A stretch of 64,000 nucleotides of DNA from contig CAXHJY010000192.1 in NCBI GenBank assembly GCA_964016885.1, forward strand, positions 28,170 through 92,169. Direction: 5' to 3'. The number at the start of each line of letters is the position of its first letter. The first letter of the stretch is position 1. The notes under the pieces are model-generated. The model saw only the letters and a program-made list of their open reading frames with translations. It made no database searches and was not told the DNA's origin. This document shows positions 35,611-62,790 of this stretch, piece after piece. Source of the stretch: Eledone cirrhosa. Taxonomy: Eukaryota. The position numbers and the translations under genes were made by a program.

Positions 35611-36700
35611 TCCAATACACAGGAGATTCTTCCAAAGCATATCCTACATTTTATGGTCCGATATTGCCAGAAGTACTTAATGTTTGATATTAATAAGGAT
35701 TTGCTCCAATACGATTTCTTGAAGACAAGACAGTCAGCGGGTCCTGCCGATTTTTTTTGTAATTAATGAAGACTCTAGCTTCCCGACCCCAACTGCGGCC
35801 GATTCAACACCCAGTAATCACCATGGTCTTCTTCTTTACATTGTCACCATGTACAAAGTTGAAAATGGAAGTGGGTGACTACAAACAAAATCTAGTCAAG
35901 GATTTCAACAATTATAGAATGACGCACCCATATCGGTATATGCACGACATGTTAATAAATGGACCACTAGCTCATATAGTAAAAAATGACCAAATCTTTC
36001 AGATTATGGCTTCCATGGACTATTTGCCATTTCAACATGAGGATCATGAACTATCCCTTTTGAGAAGAGGGACAATTCTTACCAGATTTGACGGCATGCA
36101 CATAGTAGAAGTCCTCGACCATTTCAGAAAAACACTCCAATTGAGGCTTGAAGATATGATCTGTATCGTAACAATGAGGCTGGTGCTACAGAAATGTTGA
36201 GAGTACTGAAAGCCCTGAATACAGGGGCAGCTAATACTGAAATCTTCCCTTATCAAAAATCTCTCGGCTTGATCAAAAAATGTGTTTTCTCAGCAGGCTC
36301 CAATCCCTATCTACACACATTCTTCGGAATGATAGGTTGCCTCAGCAAGGATAAAAGATTTGTTAATTCCCGAAATATAGAGCCAGGACATGTTGAATCT
36401 GGTCTGGTTGACGCGCTCGCATTCAGAGTGGCTCATAGATCCAAACCGCACAAAGTCTTCTTTTATGCTGAGGAAGGACAAGTTGATGAGGATCCAGATA
36501 TAGATCTCAATCAGATAGGTTTTGGAATTTCAGAAAGTATGGTACAGATGGTGAACAGGTTTCCAAATCCGACAAGTTTTATCTCAACATTCAATAAAAG
36601 CGCGATTAGCAAAGTTAGACCCGGAACATTGGGGCAGGCTTTTAATGATTCTGTTACAGAAGCACAGAAATCTGGGGGGGGGGGGGGTATCAAGAATTGA
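35611..36700 (+). pseudogene. endogenous rhabdovirus-like nucleoprotein (N) gene, 5'-truncated and frameshifted
   Basis: Stitched frames give LLLYIVTMYKV..DYKQNL, IMASMDY..HEDHELSLLRRGTILTRF and PYQKSLGLIKKCVFSAGSNPYLH. These are collinear with vesiculovirus N motifs as I recall them: LYLLGLYRV..EYRKKL, IVAAVDMF..KHECASFRYGTIVSRF and PYLIDFGLSSKSPYSSVKNPAFH. Frameshifts at about 35755, 35873 and 36185. Confidence 0.88.
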
Positions 36701-36800: not shown

Positions 36801-36829
36801 ATACTTAACTAACAAAACCACTGCCCAAA

Positions 36830-37818
36830 ATGCCGCAAGATAGACAGAGACAGTGCAGGAAATCATACAACTATGCCAAGGGAAACAAAGTAGCCTTAGG
36901 CTCCCTTAAGGAAATCTGTGGAGCCATTGGTGCAACTACCCTTCCAGAGGACAATCGTGTGTCTGAACTTCTAGAAACATCCAGAATGGGAAGAGATGAC
37001 CCTCAAAATACACCAAGCTACGAGTATAGTGGCGAATTACCCGACTCCAGCTTGATACCTACAAAAATGGAAATAGGCTATGAATCCCAACATGAGGAGA
37101 CTAATGAACCTCCTCTTTACCAAGTAACTAAAGAGCACAGGGAAAGGAGAGAAAGAGTATCCCTACCTTTATCTCTACCACCTCCCAAAGTTGGTCAACC
37201 CTCAAGCATACCAAGTGACTTCTCTGAACCTCCTGAGAAGAGGAGTTGTCAGGGGGGGGGGGGGGGACTCTTATATACGAGTCTAACGCAATTTTTGTAT
37301 CACCTGAGGAGGCTGATATATTCAAGAGGTCATTTGATATACTCTTCAAGGATAGTATGGACAGAAATTTTCTCCCGCATGTCATTATAGAGCCTCATGG
37401 AGATATTTTGAGCATTAAAATGACAATGCGAAACATGCCTGCACAACCAGTTGAAAACGTTGTGGAAAATGTTGCTCCACCTATGCCAGTACCAGAGGAC
37501 AACACTTCATGTGCAAAACTGACTGATGAATTTCATGAAAGAATGGCTCAAATCAAATCAAAATCTATATTTTATCGCATGGACAAGTTTAAAATGGATA
37601 CCATAGGTTTAAAAGGACATGCAAAACCTGTAAACGATTTTTTGGAATTATGACTGTCAAGTCGAAAATTGAGGAATTTCCGGGATCCCCGAATGCCTGA
37701 TAAGTGGCTAGTGCTGATGATCGTGCACCTTAATCCTAATCCCATTATAAGAGCTGCCTTAGGCTTCAAAACTTTCAACAAGTATGTGCTAGAGATTAAC
37801 GACATTTTATCAACCTGA
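36830..37818 (+). pseudogene. putative viral phosphoprotein (P-position) gene, disrupted
   Basis: First ATG after the junction, with an acidic, S/P/E-rich N-terminal half. Frameshift in the G15 run at 37252-37266. After an in-frame TGA at 37651-37653 the frame stays open to TGA 37816-37818. Identity is from position and composition only. Confidence 0.65.
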
Positions 37819-42916: not shown

Positions 42917-42985
<69 letters not shown>

Positions 42986-42992
<7 letters not shown>

Positions 42993-43678
42993 GCATATAT
43001 GTTATAGAATGCCGTTAGCTTCTTGCTAAAACAATCTCTATACCTCTCATTTATATTTATACTCGGATTCTTTTCCTAGAGTGCTTAAACTATCTGTGAC
43101 TAATCCCGGTTTTTTTCATAAAAACTGTGATAATTATTGCTATTTTGCTGAACTCCTTTGTAGAGTTTTTTTTCAGAATGTATTTGACTGCTATTTCTTG
43201 TAAATAAACATTCACTTCCATCCTGACGTCACTAGCCCCGTTTTTTCCTCATGTGCTTTTTCATAAATACACATGAAGGCGAACTAGCCAGTTTTAGAAT
43301 TCCCTTTTTCGGATTATATTACTGTGAGAGCCCTGGTTTTCTGTTGAGCTCTGCTGATGATTGAAATTCCAACCGTGACCATCTCCACTGAAAGTTTTCA
43401 TGAAATAGTCTTTTAAGACTATACAGAGCATTTGATGTTATTCCAAATTGAAGGATAAGTGTTTCAAACTTTATTTTATCATGAGTTAAAGGTCTATAGA
43501 TTTTCCCTGGATTTTACTCAATTCTGTGGATGAATTTATATCCTGATTCTCTTTTGAGATGAGTTTGAGTTATTTTTCCTAAATCTTTCGTTAACTACTT
43601 TTCCCATCTTGACGTTATAGTCGCATATATGTTACAGAATGCCGTTAGCTTCTTGCTAAAACAATCTCTATACCTCTC

Positions 43679-43687
<9 letters not shown>
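42986..43687 (+). mobile_element. retrozyme-like insertion: 630-bp unit plus about 70-bp terminal redundancy, within (TA)n
   Basis: 42986-43057 is repeated at 43616-43687 with one mismatch. No ORF. Internal hammerhead. Confidence 0.72.
43348..43429 (+). ncRNA. type I hammerhead ribozyme motif
   Basis: gctctg CTGATGA t-tgaaa...tttca-t GAAA tagtct ttta agacta TA cagagc. Stem I is 6 bp and stem III is 7 bp. Predicted cut after A43423. Confidence 0.75.
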
Positions 43688-43726
<39 letters not shown>

Positions 43727-44284: not shown

Positions 44285-44310
<26 letters not shown>

Positions 44311-44321
<11 letters not shown>

Positions 44322-47300
44322 GATCGAGTATCGAAAAATCGGCGCACGAGTTAACGAAAAACGAAATTCGATATGAGCGGCAGAGGGCTCAATAATTCAG
44401 ATGAATCAGAGCTATAACTATCGTTAAAATACCGTCACATATAGAACAAGTCTACAATCAACCATACGATTTAAAATCGATAAAGGAAGATTCGGGCCAA
44501 ACAGATAAAAAATATCAATAAAACAATACGTCAATAATTTAAATGAATGTAAAATCATACCCGGACCCACTAGAAAGGTGTTAAATCTAGCTTCATGGGT
44601 TTCTGTAAATCCTTAGACAGTACTCTATCAGCTCACATATAAATATAAAAGCCTACTAGAATAAGTGGAACGGAGTTTACGTTGTCAACGAGTTTTATCC
44701 TGGCGGCAAAGGAGTCAACTAGCGGTGAAAAACGCACATGGCATTAGACAAGGGAGATGACCCCTATATCCGCGAAAATAATTCGAGTGAATGTGGAAAT
44801 ACACATATCGAATTAGAGTGCTCAATAGACATGTTAAAATAAAACAAAAGCTATTCATCACTCAATAGAATCGACAAAATATGAGCAATAAAATTAACTG
44901 GTGGATAGCTAAGTCCAGAGCTAAATATATTAGAAAGATCGAGTATCGAAAAATCGGCGCACGAGTTAACGAAAAACGAAATTCGATATGAGCGGCAGAG
45001 GGCTCAATAATTCAGATGAATCAGAGCTATAACTATCGTTAAAATACCGTCACATATAGAACAAGTCTACAATCAACCATACGATTTAAAATCGATAAAG
45101 GAAGATTCGGGCCAAACAGATAAAAAATATCAATAAAACAATACGTCAATAATTTAAATGAATGTAAAATCATACCCGGACCCACTAGAAAGGTGTTAAA
45201 TCTAGCTTCATGGGTTTCTGTAAATCCTTAGACAGTACTCTATCAGCTCACATATAAATATAAAAGCCTACTAGAATAAGTGGAACGGAGTTTACGTTGT
45301 CAACGAGTTTTATCCTGGCGGCAAAGGAGTCAACTAGCGGTGAAAAACGCACATGGCATTAGACAAGGGAGATGACCCCTATATCCGCGAAAATAATTCG
45401 AGTGAATGTGGAAATACACATATCGAATTAGAGTGCTCAATAGACATGTTAAAATAAAACAAAAGCTATTCATCACTCAATAGAATCGACAAAATATGAG
45501 CAATAAAATTAACTGGTGGATAGCTATGTCCAGAGCTAAATATATTAGAAAGATCGAGTATCGAAAAATCGGCGCACGAGTTAACGAAAAACGAAATTCG
45601 ATATGAGCGGCAGAGGGCTCAATAATTCAGATGAATCAGAGCTATAACTATCGTTAAAATACCGTCACATATAGAACAAGTCTACAATCAACCATACGAT
45701 TTAAAATCGATAAAGGAAGATTCGGGCCAAACAGATAAAAAATATCAATAAAACAATACGTCAATAATTTAAATGAATGTAAAATCATACCCGGACCCAC
45801 TAGAAAGGTGTTAAATCTAGCTTCATGGGTTTCTGTAAATCCTTAGACAGTACTCTATCAGCTCACATATAAATATAAAAGCCTACTAGAATAAGTGGAA
45901 CGGAGTTTACGTTGTCAACGAGTTTTATCCTGGCGGCAAAGGAGTCAACTAGCGGTGAAAAACGCACATGGCATTAGACAAGGGAGATGACCCCTATATC
46001 CGCGAAAATAATTCGAGTGAATGTGGAAATACACATATCGAATTAGAGTGCTCAATAGACATGTTAAAATAAAACAAAAGCTATTCATCACTCAATAGAA
46101 TCGACAAAATATGAGCAATAAAATTAACTGGTGGATAGCTATGTCCAGAGCTAAATATATTAGAAAGATCGAGTATCGAAAAATCGGCGCACGAGTTAAC
46201 GAAAAACGAAATTCGATATGAGCGGCAGAGGGCTCAATAATTCAGATGAATCAGAGCTATAACTATCGTTAAAATACCGTCACATATAGAACAAGTCTAC
46301 AATCAACCATACGATTTAAAATCGATAAAGGAAGATTCGGGCCAAACAGATAAAAAATATCAATAAAACAATACGTCAATAATTTAAATGAATGTAAAAT
46401 CATACCCGGACCCACTAGAAAGGTGTTAAATCTAGCTTCATGGGTTTCTGTAAATCCTTAGACAGTACTCTATCAGCTCACATATAAATATAAAAGCCTA
46501 CTAGAATAAGTGGAACGGAGTTTACGTTGTCAACGAGTTTTATCCTGGCGGCAAAGGAGTCAACTAGCGGTGAAAAACGCACATGGCATTAGACAAGGGA
46601 GATGACCCCTATATCCGCGAAAATAATTCGAGTGAATGTGGAAATACACATATCGAATTAGAGTGCTCAATAGACATGTTAAAATAAAACAAAAGCTATT
46701 CATCACTCAATAGAATCGACAAAATATGAGCAATAAAATTAACTGGTGGATAGCTATGTCCAGAGCTAAATATATTAGAAAGATCGAGTATCGAAAAATC
46801 GGCGCACGAGTTAACGAAAAACGAAATTCGATATGAGCGGCAGAGGGCTCAATAATTCAGATGAATCAGAGCTATAACTATCGTTAAAATACCGTCACAT
46901 ATAGAACAAGTCTACAATCAACCATACGATTTAAAATCGATAAAGGAAGATTCGGGCCAAACAGATAAAAAATATCAATAAAACAATACGTCAATAATTT
47001 AAATGAATGTAAAATCATACCCGGACCCACTAGAAAGGTGTTAAATCTAGCTTCATGGGTTTCTGTAAATCCTTAGACAGTACTCTATCAGCTCACATAT
47101 AAATATAAAAGCCTACTAGAATAAGTGGAACGGAGTTTACGTTGTCAACGAGTTTTATCCTGGCGGCAAAGGAGTCAACTAGCGGTGAAAAACGCACATG
47201 GCATTAGACAAGGGAGATGACCCCTATATCCGCGAAAATAATTCGAGTGAATGTGGAAATACACATATCGAATTAGAGTGCTCAATAGACATGTTAAAAT

Positions 47301-49336
47301 AAAACAAAAGCTATTCATCACTCAATAGAATCGACAAAATATGAGCAATAAAATTAACTGGTGGATAGCTATGTCCAGAGCTAAATATATTAGAAAGATC
47401 GAGTATCGAAAAATCGGCGCACGAGTTAACGAAAAACGAAATTCGATATGAGCGGCAGAGGGCTCAATAATTCAGATGAATCAGAGCTATAACTATCGTT
47501 AAAATACCGTCACATATAGAACAAGTCTACAATCAACCATACGATTTAAAATCGATAAAGGAAGATTCGGGCCAAACAGATAAAAAATATCAATAAAACA
47601 ATACGTCAATAATTTAAATGAATGTAAAATCATACCCGGACCCACTAGAAAGGTGTTAAATCTAGCTTCATGGGTTTCTGTAAATCCTTAGACAGTACTC
47701 TATCAGCTCACATATAAATATAAAAGCCTACTAGAATAAGTGGAACGGAGTTTACGTTGTCAACGAGTTTTATCCTGGCGGCAAAGGAGTCAACTAGCGG
47801 TGAAAAACGCACATGGCATTAGACAAGGGAGATGACCCCTATATCCGCGAAAATAATTCGAGTGAATGTGGAAATACACATATCGAATTAGAGTGCTCAA
47901 TAGACATGTTAAAATAAAACAAAAGCTATTCATCACTCAATAGAATCGACAAAATATGAGCAATAAAATTAACTGGTGGATAGCTATGTCCAGAGCTAAA
48001 TATATTAGAAAGATCGAGTATCGAAAAATCGGCGCACGAGTTAACGAAAAACGAAATTCGATATGAGCGGCAGAGGGCTCAATAATTCAGATGAATCAGA
48101 GCTATAACTATCGTTAAAATACCGTCACATATAGAACAAGTCTACAATCAACCATACGATTTAAAATCGATAAAGGAAGATTCGGGCCAAACAGATAAAA
48201 AATATCAATAAAACAATACGTCAATAATTTAAATGAATGTAAAATCATACCCGGACCCACTAGAAAGGTGTTAAATCTAGCTTCATGGGTTTCTGTAAAT
48301 CCTTAGACAGTACTCTATCAGCTCACATATAAATATAAAAGCCTACTAGAATAAGTGGAACGGAGTTTACGTTGTCAACGAGTTTTATCCTGGCGGCAAA
48401 GGAGTCAACTAGCGGTGAAAAACGCACATGGCATTAGACAAGGGAGATGACCCCTATATCCGCGAAAATAATTCGAGTGAATGTGGAAATACACATATCG
48501 AATTAGAGTGCTCAATAGACATGTTAAAATAAAACAAAAGCTATTCATCACTCAATAGAATCGACAAAATATGAGCAATAAAATTAACTGGTGGATAGCT
48601 ATGTCCAGAGCTAAATATATTAGAAAGATCGAGTATCGAAAAATCGGCGCACGAGTTAACGAAAAACGAAATTCGATATGAGCGGCAGAGGGCTCAATAA
48701 TTCAGATGAATCAGAGCTATAACTATCGTTAAAATACCGTCACATATAGAACAAGTCTACAATCAACCATACGATTTAAAATCGATAAAGGAAGATTCGG
48801 GCCAAACAGATAAAAAATATCAATAAAACAATACGTCAATAATTTAAATGAATGTAAAATCATACCCGGACCCACTAGAAAGGTGTTAAATCTAGCTTCA
48901 TGGGTTTCTGTAAATCCTTAGACAGTACTCTATCAGCTCACATATAAATATAAAAGCCTACTAGAATAAGTGGAACGGAGTTTACGTTGTCAACGAGTTT
49001 TATCCTGGCGGCAAAGGAGTCAACTAGCGGTGAAAAACGCACATGGCATTAGACAAGGGAGATGACCCCTATATCCGCGAAAATAATTCGAGTGAATGTG
49101 GAAATACACATATCGAATTAGAGTGCTCAATAGACATGTTAAAATAAAACAAAAGCTATTCATCACTCAATAGAATCGACAAAAAATGAGCAATAAAATT
49201 AACTGGTGGATAGCTATGTCCAGAGCTAAATATATTAGAAAGATCGAGTATCGAAAAATCGGCGCACGAGTTAACGAAAAACGAAATTCGATATGAGCGG
49301 CAGAGGGCTCAATAATTCAGATGAATCAGAGCTATA
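44311..49336. repeat. 615-bp tandem array, 8 full copies plus about 105 bp, inserted in (TA)n
   Basis: Units start at 44311, 44926, 45541, 46156, 46771, 47386, 48001, 48616 and 49231. I saw only two substitutions (about 44912 and 49185). No ORF in the unit. Confidence 0.97.
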
Positions 49337-49599
49337 TATATATAGATAGATATATATACATATATTTTATATTTATTTATTTGATTATGTAATAAACAAC
49401 ACAATATAATTATTCCATTGCCCAAGGTTTCACATAATTAAATGGCTCTGTACTATATATAGAGCACTTTTCTTTCCTTTACCTTTTCTATGGAAATACA
49501 TAACATTATATCTATATATCTATATATATATATGTATGTGTATGTGTATATATATATATATATGTAAGTATGTATGTGTATATATATATATATATATAT

Positions 49600-50596
49600 A
49601 TGAAAGACGTAAAATAAGAAAATTTTAAAAAGTAATAATTAACTTACTTACTAAAATTTTCACTCCAACTAATTAGTTTCTGTAAGGGAACAAATATAGT
49701 TACGTAACGTAACAATAGAGAATTCCTTACGTCATCAGGGAGTCTATCCTCAGCTAAGTTCCCAGGCAATGCGCGGACACTAGGAACCCATATAAAATAA
49801 TAATTCAGTGGATGGGATGACGTAAGGAATTCTCTATAGTTACGTTACGTAACTATATTTGTTCCCTTACAGAAACTAATTAGTTGGAGTGAAAACTTTA
49901 GTAAGTTAATCTTTAATTTTTAAAATTTTCTTATTTTACGTCTTTCATATAATTGTTCTGCATCCCCTGCATAGAACCACAAAGGTACTAAGACATAACA
50001 TATATATTTGCTAGCATGAGTATACATCTGTATACATATGTTGGTAGATATACTAATTGTCTATATTTATCTCCAAATTATTTGTTGAGTAAAACTTGCC
50101 AAAATTTACTGCTATGGTTCATGGTAGTAGTAGTAGGCTCTTGTCATAATACCACCCCACTCCTCACTGATTAACCTTAGTGTCACGTGATTGATTCTTT
50201 AGAATCTGCCACTGACCAAATAGGCAGTGAATTTTTTCAGTGCTCTGGAATTTAGTACCTGCTAGCTTTATTCCATCCACTGAATTATTATTTTTATATG
50301 GGTTCCTAGTGTCCGCGCATTGCCTGGGAACTTAGCTGAGAATAGACTCCCTGATGACGTAAGGAATTCTCTATAGTTACGTTACGTAACTATATTTGTT
50401 CCCTTACAGAAACTAATTAGTTGGAGTGAAAATTTTAGTAAGTTAATTTTTAATTTTTAAAATTTTCTTATTTTACGTCTTTCATATAATTGTTCTGCAT
50501 CCCCCTGCATAGAACCACAAAGGTACTAAGACATAACATATATATTTGCTAGCATGGGTATACATCTGTATACATATGTTGGTAGATATACTAATT
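49600..50596. mobile_element. Penelope/retrozyme-like insertion: inverted 5' segment plus about 1.45 tandem copies of a 537-bp unit
   Basis: 49816-50057 is repeated at 50353-50596. 49600-49813 is the reverse complement of about 50273-50487. Hammerheads at 49662-49743 (-) and 50346-50427 (+). Confidence 0.75.
50346..50427 (+). ncRNA. type I hammerhead motif with long stem II and palindromic stem III
   Basis: actcc CTGATGA c-gtaagg...ccttac-a GAAA ctaattag TT ggagt. Confidence 0.72.
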
Positions 50597-50597
50597 C

Positions 50598-50630
<33 letters not shown>

Positions 50631-61641: not shown

Positions 61642-62790
61642 CTACCTTAAAAAGTCAAACGAAATTAATTCTTTCAATTGTGTTGGAAGATTTAAATCTT
61701 TCACCTTATCCAATTTTCTTCCTAACTGCTGGCGTATAGTAAGTGCACAGATGTCTGCGAGAGATTTAGGGTTGCCAACCAGTTCCAAAAGCCACAACAT
61801 AACTTCCTCATGGGGACTGTCCCTAAAAGGAGGGTTCTTTAATCGTAACCAACTCTCAGAATTTACATTGTAACCAGAATGCACAAGTAATTTTATCATT
61901 TTCGAATCTGCCCTGAGAGTGGCAGTATATAAAGGTGAATGTCCTGCATTGTTGGCTGTGTTAAGTCTAACATTTTCTGTAATTAAATACTTAGCCACTT
62001 CATACCTGTTGTGGTAAACGGCCAGGTGGAAGGCAGTGAAACCGTGAAGGGTTTGTCCTTCTACGTCAATTCCACAGCTAACTAACAGTTTCACTATGTG
62101 TAAGTGTCCACAGCTTGCAGCTATGTGAAGGGCCGTTTCATTATCGTTCGTAGTCCTATTGATATCGGCACTTACCCGGATCAACATTTCCACAACCTTT
62201 ATGTAACCATAGCAGGTTGATGTGTGTATAGGCGCCCACCCGTCCCTATCAACCATATCAACTTTGGCACCATACCGAATTAGTAGTTCGCAAATATCCA
62301 AATGTCCCAGGCATGTCGCAGCATGTAACGGTGTAAAGCGGTCCATTTGAGCAATATTAACACTGGCTCCCATTCGGATTAAATACTCAGCAATTTGGAC
62401 GTGTCCATGTGTAGAAGCCCAGTGCAAAGCTGTTTTCTCGTCGCCGTCTCGACAGTCGACATCAACACCGACTTTTAAAAGGGCCTGTACATAGTTCAAA
62501 TGACCCTTGGCAGCGGCGATATGGATGGGTCGCCGAAACCAAATGTGGTCAGTAAAATCAGGCTGGGCCAAATCACAGTTGGCCTCAATAAGCATGTTTA
62601 AAACATCTATGTTACCTCGTTCGGAAGCTACACATATCGGACTGTAGCCTTCCAACACGAAACATGGACAAACATTTTTCTCTTTGATATATCTTCGGAC
62701 TTTGTCCACGTCGTCATAGGAAATTGCTTCCAACAGTTCCCGTTGACCAAATTCACCTCCCGTCGTGTAGCTACATGGTAGCATCTTCAT
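61642..62790 (-). CDS. ankyrin-repeat and SOCS-box protein (ASB-like), 382 aa, single coding exon
   Basis: About 8 ankyrin repeats (TALHWAS, TPLHAAT, TALHIAA and others) and a C-terminal SOCS box PKSLADICALTIRQQLG...LNLPTQLKELI. Intact ATG to stop. Confidence 0.93.
   Translation of the reverse strand: MKMLPCSYTTGGEFGQRELLEAISYDDVDKVRRYIKEKNVCPCFVLEGYSPICVASERGNIDVLNMLIEANCDLAQPDFTDHIWFRRPIHIAAAKGHLNYVQALLKVGVDVDCRDGDEKTALHWASTHGHVQIAEYLIRMGASVNIAQMDRFTPLHAATCLGHLDICELLIRYGAKVDMVDRDGWAPIHTSTCYGYIKVVEMLIRVSADINRTTNDNETALHIAASCGHLHIVKLLVSCGIDVEGQTLHGFTAFHLAVYHNRYEVAKYLITENVRLNTANNAGHSPLYTATLRADSKMIKLLVHSGYNVNSESWLRLKNPPFRDSPHEEVMLWLLELVGNPKSLADICALTIRQQLGRKLDKVKDLNLPTQLKELISFDFLR

What the first reader, a model, noticed from the sequence alone, without database searches (positions are those of the whole stretch)
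42986..43687. Second, sequence-distinct 630-nt unit with terminal redundancy and an internal hammerhead
Seen: about 1.1 copies of a U-rich, ORF-less 630-bp unit in a (TA)n tract. It has a hammerhead with well-formed stems I and III, an AUA site and U-U at the base of stem II. The architecture matches the 497-bp element but I see no extended sequence similarity. Inference: a diverse family of circular RNA templates being retro-integrated.
Basis: partly seen in the sequence, partly recalled or inferred. Interest (0 to 1): 0.75.

Follow-up and report, generated by a model that had tools for sequence, protein, structure and literature searches.

The report
Penelope-type hammerhead retrozyme targeting TA repeats
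This is one of more than 800 recent copies of a 630-base non-coding jumping repeat with a predicted self-cutting RNA motif, likely pasted into TA runs by a Penelope-type enzyme copying a probably circular RNA; it is a new member of the known retrozyme class.

Summary
In detail: a 630-bp unit plus a 70-bp repeat sits in (TA)n and carries a type I hammerhead (predicted cut after A43423). It is one copy of a young dispersed family: 834 exact 3' termini, plus older subfamilies down to about 70% identity. Hammerhead stems I and II show compensatory changes between subfamilies. Copies share one 3' end, 262 nt downstream of the cut site (37 of 40 top hits), and have scattered 5' ends. The terminal redundancy is therefore one full pass plus 70 nt, not a local duplication. 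Reverse transcription does not stall at the cut site (2 of 45 copies stop there, 2.5 expected; no indel in 59 crossings). That excludes a cut linear monomer as template. It fits a circle (about 60%) or an uncut multimer (about 28%). This is a non-LTR retrozyme, probably a non-autonomous Penelope-like element; both ideas are published. Cleavage, circular RNA and the mobilising enzyme are not shown: no RNA run was listed, and no partner was found in 40 Penelope loci. The scan has already noted other retrozyme families in this genome.

The parts
42919..42989 (.). Left (TA)n target tract; the element's 5' end merges with it through TATA microhomology
   Evidence: unit position 627 is the commonest 5' end, 5 of 86
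42986..43685 (+). Whole insertion, 700 bp = 1.11 units
42990..43619 (+). One 630-nt monomer (circular permutation), U-rich and non-coding; folds as a branched circle, 60% paired, z -4.5 against 40 shuffles
42986..43055 (+). 5' copy of the 70-bp terminal redundancy (pseudo-LTR-like partial tandem)
43616..43685 (+). 3' copy of the redundancy, ending at the family-wide 3' end (unit position 66), the inferred internal start of reverse transcription
43348..43429 (+). Type I hammerhead: stem I 43348-53/43424-29, core 43354-60, stem II 43361-66/43396-43401 (U.U at the base, long loop), GAA 43402-04, stem III 43405-10/43417-22; predicted cut after A43423
43343..43373 (+). Possible loop 1-loop 2 pseudoknot (GUUG 43343-46 with CAAC 43370-73); conserved but with almost no covariation, so tentative
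43645..43659 (+). Small hairpin about 25 nt before the 3' end; candidate enzyme-recognition element (inferred)
   Evidence: similar sequence in other subfamilies
43682..43724 (.). Right (TA)n target tract

Best explanation
This is a non-coding, hammerhead-bearing retroelement (non-LTR retrozyme) inserted in a (TA)n tract, likely by a Penelope-type reverse transcriptase-endonuclease that probably copied a ligated circular 630-nt RNA once round plus 70 nt. Steps: (1) tandem copies are transcribed (inferred); (2) the hammerhead cuts after AUA and the monomer is ligated into a circle (inferred from structure, covariation and other retrozymes); (3) a Penelope-type enzyme nicks (TA)n (inferred) and starts at a fixed internal site 262 nt downstream of the cut (fixed end shown); (4) synthesis runs through the cut site without pausing (shown) and stops at random, about once per 440 nt, often at TA-like microhomology (shown); (5) some long arrays are later rearranged locally (suggested by mosaic variant patterns).
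For: Fixed 3' end: 37 of 40 scored insertions, chosen by whole-unit similarity, end at the same site; two end at a minor site (unit position about 268) and one at 400. Older subfamilies share that end. In the first 90 of 834 termini, lengths run from 31 to over 2,031 nt, and 70 of 88 readable 5' ends abut TA. With four paired or duplicated rows dropped, 2 of 45 copies stop within 251-275 nt (2.5 expected) and 0 of 11 stop at the second pass; with all 90 rows it is 2 of 47. All 59 crossings of the cut site are colinear: 52 exact, 7 with substitutions only. Covariation in 24 aligned hammerheads: stem I U-A/A-U 15:7 and A-U/G-C 12:10, stem II C-G/U-A 17:2; N7 and loop 3 vary. Differences between units of one insertion recur across loci no more than chance (10 of 152 sites; 7.7 expected, p 0.22). 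Five insertion-private variants are present in all units, two of them in 5 of 5. Private substitutions are strand-skewed (T>C 36 vs A>G 9, p 0.009; C>T 31 vs G>A 12, p 0.03), as a one-strand copying step would give. GIY-YIG retroelements are abundant in the genome (10,597 candidates); several encode RT plus C-terminal GIY-YIG, end in (TA)n and have hammerheads with U.U at the base of stem II nearby. Circles were shown for coral, mussel and axolotl retrozymes (PMC7229834).
Against: There are no RNA or cleavage data. In the one Penelope element studied in vitro, uncut RNA was the dominant substrate and dead-ribozyme mutants inserted equally well (PMC11167929). Eight of nine Xenopus retrozymes did not cleave in vitro (10.64898/2026.07.22.740005). 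U.U replaces the conserved G10.1-C11.1 pair, and stem II is weak in prediction. The covarying changes are only two or three inherited events, and the stem III conservation is circular because the copies were selected on it. No autonomous element sharing sequence was found in 40 loci. Period-2 and mosaic patterns in long arrays (L221, L231, L232) show that array length alone is not evidence of rolling-circle copying. The strand skew could partly reflect sequence context such as U-runs.
Confidence: 0.6

Rival explanations
1. Same element and enzyme, but the template is an uncut linear multimeric transcript of a homogeneous source array. The hammerhead acts at another step or only weakly.
For: It predicts the same fixed internal end and no stop at the cut site. 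Unprocessed RNA was the dominant substrate in vitro for a Poseidon element (PMC11167929). Long near-identical arrays exist as possible sources. The ribozyme has a non-canonical 10.1/11.1 pair.
Against: No recurring ordered unit variants across 41 insertions. 5' ends are spread out rather than piled at a source's start. Stem I pairing is kept through compensatory changes. A very young homogeneous master array cannot be excluded.
Confidence: 0.28
2. The template is a cut linear monomer, and the enzyme jumps precisely from its 5' end to the 3' end of the same or another monomer.
For: Template jumping is known for some retrotransposon enzymes (recalled, no call).
Against: No excess of stops and no indel at 59 crossings; a jump would have to be nearly always successful and exact.
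Confidence: 0.07
3. It is a DNA-level satellite or a local duplication, with no RNA step.
For: Some long arrays show local rearrangement, and a few loci are segmental duplicates (L175/L176).
Against: 834 dispersed termini on both strands in unrelated flanks, one fixed end, 5' truncation, occasional 5' inversion and strand-skewed substitutions.
Confidence: 0.03
4. Endogenised copies of an independently replicating viroid-like RNA.
For: Size, predicted circular fold and a ribozyme.
Against: No hammerhead on the opposite strand of the unit; branched rather than rod-like fold; a series of genomic subfamilies of different ages with one shared end.
Confidence: 0.02

Closest known systems
Metazoan non-LTR retrozymes (Cervera and de la Pena 2020, PMC7229834; Li, Clavereau and Pollet 2026, 10.64898/2026.07.22.740005)
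   Same: Non-coding, low-GC tandem units with one type I hammerhead each; monomers to multimers; coexist with Penelope-like elements; hammerhead stems I and III free in the predicted circle.
   Different: 630 nt against 170-400 nt in the tested invertebrates (but inside the 51-972 bp range of the preprint). Full 6-bp stem III instead of a short palindromic one, a 41-nt stem-loop II, U.U or A-U at 10.1/11.1, and an AUA site. Strict (TA)n targeting and mapped ends were not described in the parts I read. Expression is untested here.
Penelope-like elements, Neptune-type and Naiad, and non-autonomous Chlamys such as MRC1 (PMC8557442); Poseidon PAc mechanism (PMC11167929)
   Same: Partial tandems forming pseudo-LTRs, heavy 5' truncation, occasional inverted 5' pieces, (TA)n preference, and internal initiation of reverse transcription downstream of a hammerhead.
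   Different: No coding remnant and no detected similarity to any autonomous element examined. No clear 30-40-nt tail; the minor second end lies about 200 nt away.
Plant LTR retrozymes (PMC4918200, search listing only; features as summarised in the 2026 preprint)
   Same: Non-autonomous, hammerhead-bearing, similar size.
   Different: Those have a type III hammerhead, true LTRs and 4-bp target duplications; this element has none of these.

Membership tests
Non-LTR retrozyme | Type I hammerhead in each unit | tested here: met
Non-LTR retrozyme | Head-to-tail tandem units, dimers to multimers | tested here: met
   Met at family level, up to 12 full units. The window copy has one hammerhead, so it is a monomer derivative under the preprint's two-hammerhead rule.
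Non-LTR retrozyme | No coding capacity, GC under 45% | tested here: met
   (tblastn)
Non-LTR retrozyme | Monomer size in the described range | tested here: met
   630 bp: above the 170-400 nt typical in PMC7229834, within 51-972 bp in the 2026 preprint
Non-LTR retrozyme | Self-cleavage and accumulation as circular RNA | not testable with these tools
   Needs bench work or RNA reads; none were available
Non-autonomous Penelope-like element | 5' truncation with partial tandem (pseudo-LTR) and fixed 3' end | tested here: met
Non-autonomous Penelope-like element | Microsatellite or AT-rich target; inverted 5' pieces | tested here: met
   TA at 70 of 88 5' ends. Inversions are rare: L004 and 1 of 90.
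Non-autonomous Penelope-like element | Sequence shared with the end of an autonomous element | tested here: inconclusive
   None in 40 loci out of 10,597 candidates. Only a short pyrimidine-rich terminal likeness to one family; Naiads were not sampled on purpose.
Non-autonomous Penelope-like element | 30-40-nt tail from two adjacent initiation sites | tested here: inconclusive
   A minor second end occurs in 2 of 40, about 200 nt away
Viroid-like or delta-like replicon | Ribozymes on both strands and a rod-like fold | tested here: not met
LTR retrozyme | Type III hammerhead in true LTRs with a 4-bp target duplication | tested here: not met
   Type I hammerhead; the redundancy varies in length; where readable, flank duplications are long and variable, up to 68 nt

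The most novel reading that the evidence does not exclude
The copies of this family are a genomic record of target-primed rolling-circle reverse transcription. A Penelope-type enzyme starts at one internal site on a ribozyme-made, ligated 630-nt circle and passes the ligation junction seamlessly, a route proposed for retrozymes but not shown in the papers read here. The ribozyme is an atypical hammerhead that Rfam misses, with a full stem III, a long pseudoknotted loop II and U.U at 10.1/11.1.
Probability: 0.55. Interest if true: 0.5.

Novelty: new member of a known kind. Interest (0 to 1): 0.35.

Why it matters
How retrozymes and the pseudo-LTRs of Penelope elements arise is open: circular template, uncut multimer or local amplification. 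This young family has a mapped start site, a mapped cut site and hundreds of near-identical insertions. It rules out a cut linear monomer and narrows the question to circle versus uncut multimer, which one RNase R experiment can settle. Its non-canonical hammerhead also shows that standard models undercount such elements. The class itself is not new, and this genome holds many similar families.

Tried and rejected
RNA evidence: no RNA holder was listed. The five coded runs are contigs of unknown kind, and their depth pattern looks like genomic DNA, so they say nothing on expression or circles. Rfam: no ribozyme hit at gathering score or by E-value. Autonomous partner: blastn, tblastn, shuffled local alignment and a family profile against 40 GIY-YIG loci gave only two solo 60-bp fragments lying near, not in, Penelope elements; following one led to a sister non-coding subfamily. 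5' transduction: the one candidate pair, L175/L176, is a segmental duplicate. Target-site duplication of the window copy cannot be read because both flanks are pure TA. The core and U.U tallies were miscaptured by the pattern and are not used. The conservation profile included truncated copies and was replaced, where the hammerhead region is only modestly more conserved than the rest (core columns 0.83-0.94 against 0.83 outside). Literature searches for an octopus or cephalopod hammerhead retroelement returned no paper describing this family. Preprint supplements and Repbase were not seen and could hold it. The organism was not identified by any search.

Full report
Observation. The sequence is as described. 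A 630-bp unit (42990-43619, 40.8% T) is followed by a repeat of its start; 42986-43055 and 43616-43685 differ at one base. Both flanks are pure (TA)n. No ATG frame exceeds 45 codons on either strand. A motif scan finds a type I hammerhead with a 6-bp stem I, core CUGAUGA, U.U at the base of stem II, a long loop II, a 6-bp stem III and an AUA site, cut predicted after A43423; there is none on the minus strand of the unit. Rfam misses it. Folded as a circle the unit is 60% paired (z -4.5 against 40 shuffles), with stems I and III likely (0.8-1.0) and stem II weak (about 0.09).

Family. The unit gives 2,277 candidates in the 3.0-Gb genome; the 40 scored are 97-100% identical and include arrays of up to 12 full units. 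An exact 3'-terminal pattern occurs 834 times and the hammerhead 3' half 2,562 times, with 0 in the controls. A sister subfamily at about 80% gives 761 pattern matches, and an older one at about 72% gives 2,850 candidates. In 24 aligned hammerheads, stem I keeps pairing through two double changes and stem II through one, while N7 and loop 3 vary; position 10.1/11.1 is A-U in 12 and unpaired, mostly U.U, in 10. These are few independent events, and stem III was used for selection.

Ends. Of the 40 scored insertions, chosen by whole-unit similarity, 37 end at the same point (unit position 66), two at about 268 and one at 400. The older subfamilies end at the homologous point. I measured the first 90 of the 834 termini in genome order. 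Lengths run from 31 to over 2,031 nt, and 70 of 88 readable 5' ends abut TA. The window's own 5' end, at position 627, is the commonest one (5 of 86), a TA-like microhomology. Fifteen of 88 have a flank match of 15 nt or more that is not pure TA, the clearest being 68 nt. Inverted 5' pieces are rare. This is the pattern of target-primed reverse transcription from a fixed internal site.

Template. The fixed end lies 262 nt downstream of the cut site, so a cut linear monomer would stop synthesis at 262 nt. It does not. After dropping four paired or duplicated rows, 2 of 45 copies stop within 251-275 nt against 2.5 expected, and 0 of 11 stop on the second pass (2 of 47 with all rows). All 59 crossings are free of indels. 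The template is therefore a circle or an uncut multimer. In favour of a single monomer: unit differences within an insertion recur across 41 insertions no more than chance, and five insertion-private variants occur in all units. Private substitutions across 92 insertions are strand-skewed, as copying errors would be; no A-to-I signature was seen. Against leaning on long arrays: three show period-2 or mosaic patterns that suggest later local exchange.

Enzyme. GIY-YIG retroelements are abundant. Several loci encode RT with a C-terminal GIY-YIG domain and a CX4CXXC linker like that described for Neptune and Nematis (PMC8557442). Many end in (TA)n, and several hammerheads in these loci have U.U at the base of stem II. 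None of the 40 loci examined shares sequence with this family beyond a short terminal likeness. The partner is inferred, not found.

Comparison. Non-LTR retrozymes are tandem non-coding units with type I hammerheads that accumulate as circles; their authors proposed target-primed copying by Penelope elements (PMC7229834: passages and sections 14 and 17 read). A 2026 preprint ties them to Penelope pseudo-LTRs, gives sizes of 51-972 bp and found cleavage in 1 of 9 tested (parts 1-3 of 5 read, supplements not seen). Partial tandems, 5' truncation and (TA)n preference are Penelope features (PMC8557442, passages). Internal initiation was shown in vitro, where uncut RNA was the main substrate (PMC11167929, parts 1-2 of 4); this is the strongest support for the rival. 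G10.1-C11.1 is described as highly conserved (PMC4209133, passages). A squid genome paper lists 235 Rfam hammerheads without analysis (PMC6962438, passages). Earlier notes of this scan describe other retrozyme families in the same genome; a sequence look-up found none for this one.

Verdict. The feature is real and is a new member of a known class. Its added value is the end mapping, which removes the cut linear monomer and leaves a circle (0.6) or an uncut multimer (0.28). Cleavage, expression and the enzyme are untested. Interest 0.35.

Noticed in passing
window 44307-49340 (minus strand U-rich): Eight near-identical 615-bp non-coding units in (TA)n with a fixed end. A 27-mer from it has 1,741 genome matches, mostly in long arrays (7-19 units). 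It has GAAA, a paired stem and GUC, but no canonical CUGANGA or stem I (CUGAUAGA is family-wide), so any ribozyme is unresolved.
   Followed up: partly
window about 49590-50600: The 497-bp element with a type I hammerhead (core 50351, +) and an inverted 5' arm (core 49738, -); its two outer ends fall at different TA-like sites. Relatives occur in L048 and L059.
   Followed up: partly
window 36152-36700 (+): Open frame matching rhabdovirus nucleocapsid (PF00945, E 5.5e-06): a likely endogenous viral piece. The next frame, 36809-37390, has no Pfam match.
   Followed up: partly
L071-L100: Hundreds of solo pieces of about 60 bp from the sister subfamily's 3' end, set in (TA)n (890 candidates). They may be extreme truncations or deletions between terminal redundancies.
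   Followed up: partly
L053:6800 and 7259; L061:8168-9653; L069:1142; L070:2235-2885 and 9657: Further unrelated TA-embedded repeats: tandem units of about 460-490 bp with hammerheads (L053, L061), long-loop-II hammerheads (L069, L070:9657), and a 600-bp unit with terminal redundancy and weak likeness to the 615-bp unit.
   Followed up: no
L201/L202, L211/L212, L204/L205: Opposite-strand pairs of short copies facing tail to tail, 0.2-5 kb apart, within or beside TA tracts.
   Followed up: no
window 61642-62790 (-): Intronless 382-aa frame with ankyrin-like repeats and a SOCS-box-like end (by eye, recalled).
   Followed up: no
window 23034, 23159, 30706, 40469, 53754: Other hammerhead-like motifs in dispersed repeats.
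   Followed up: no
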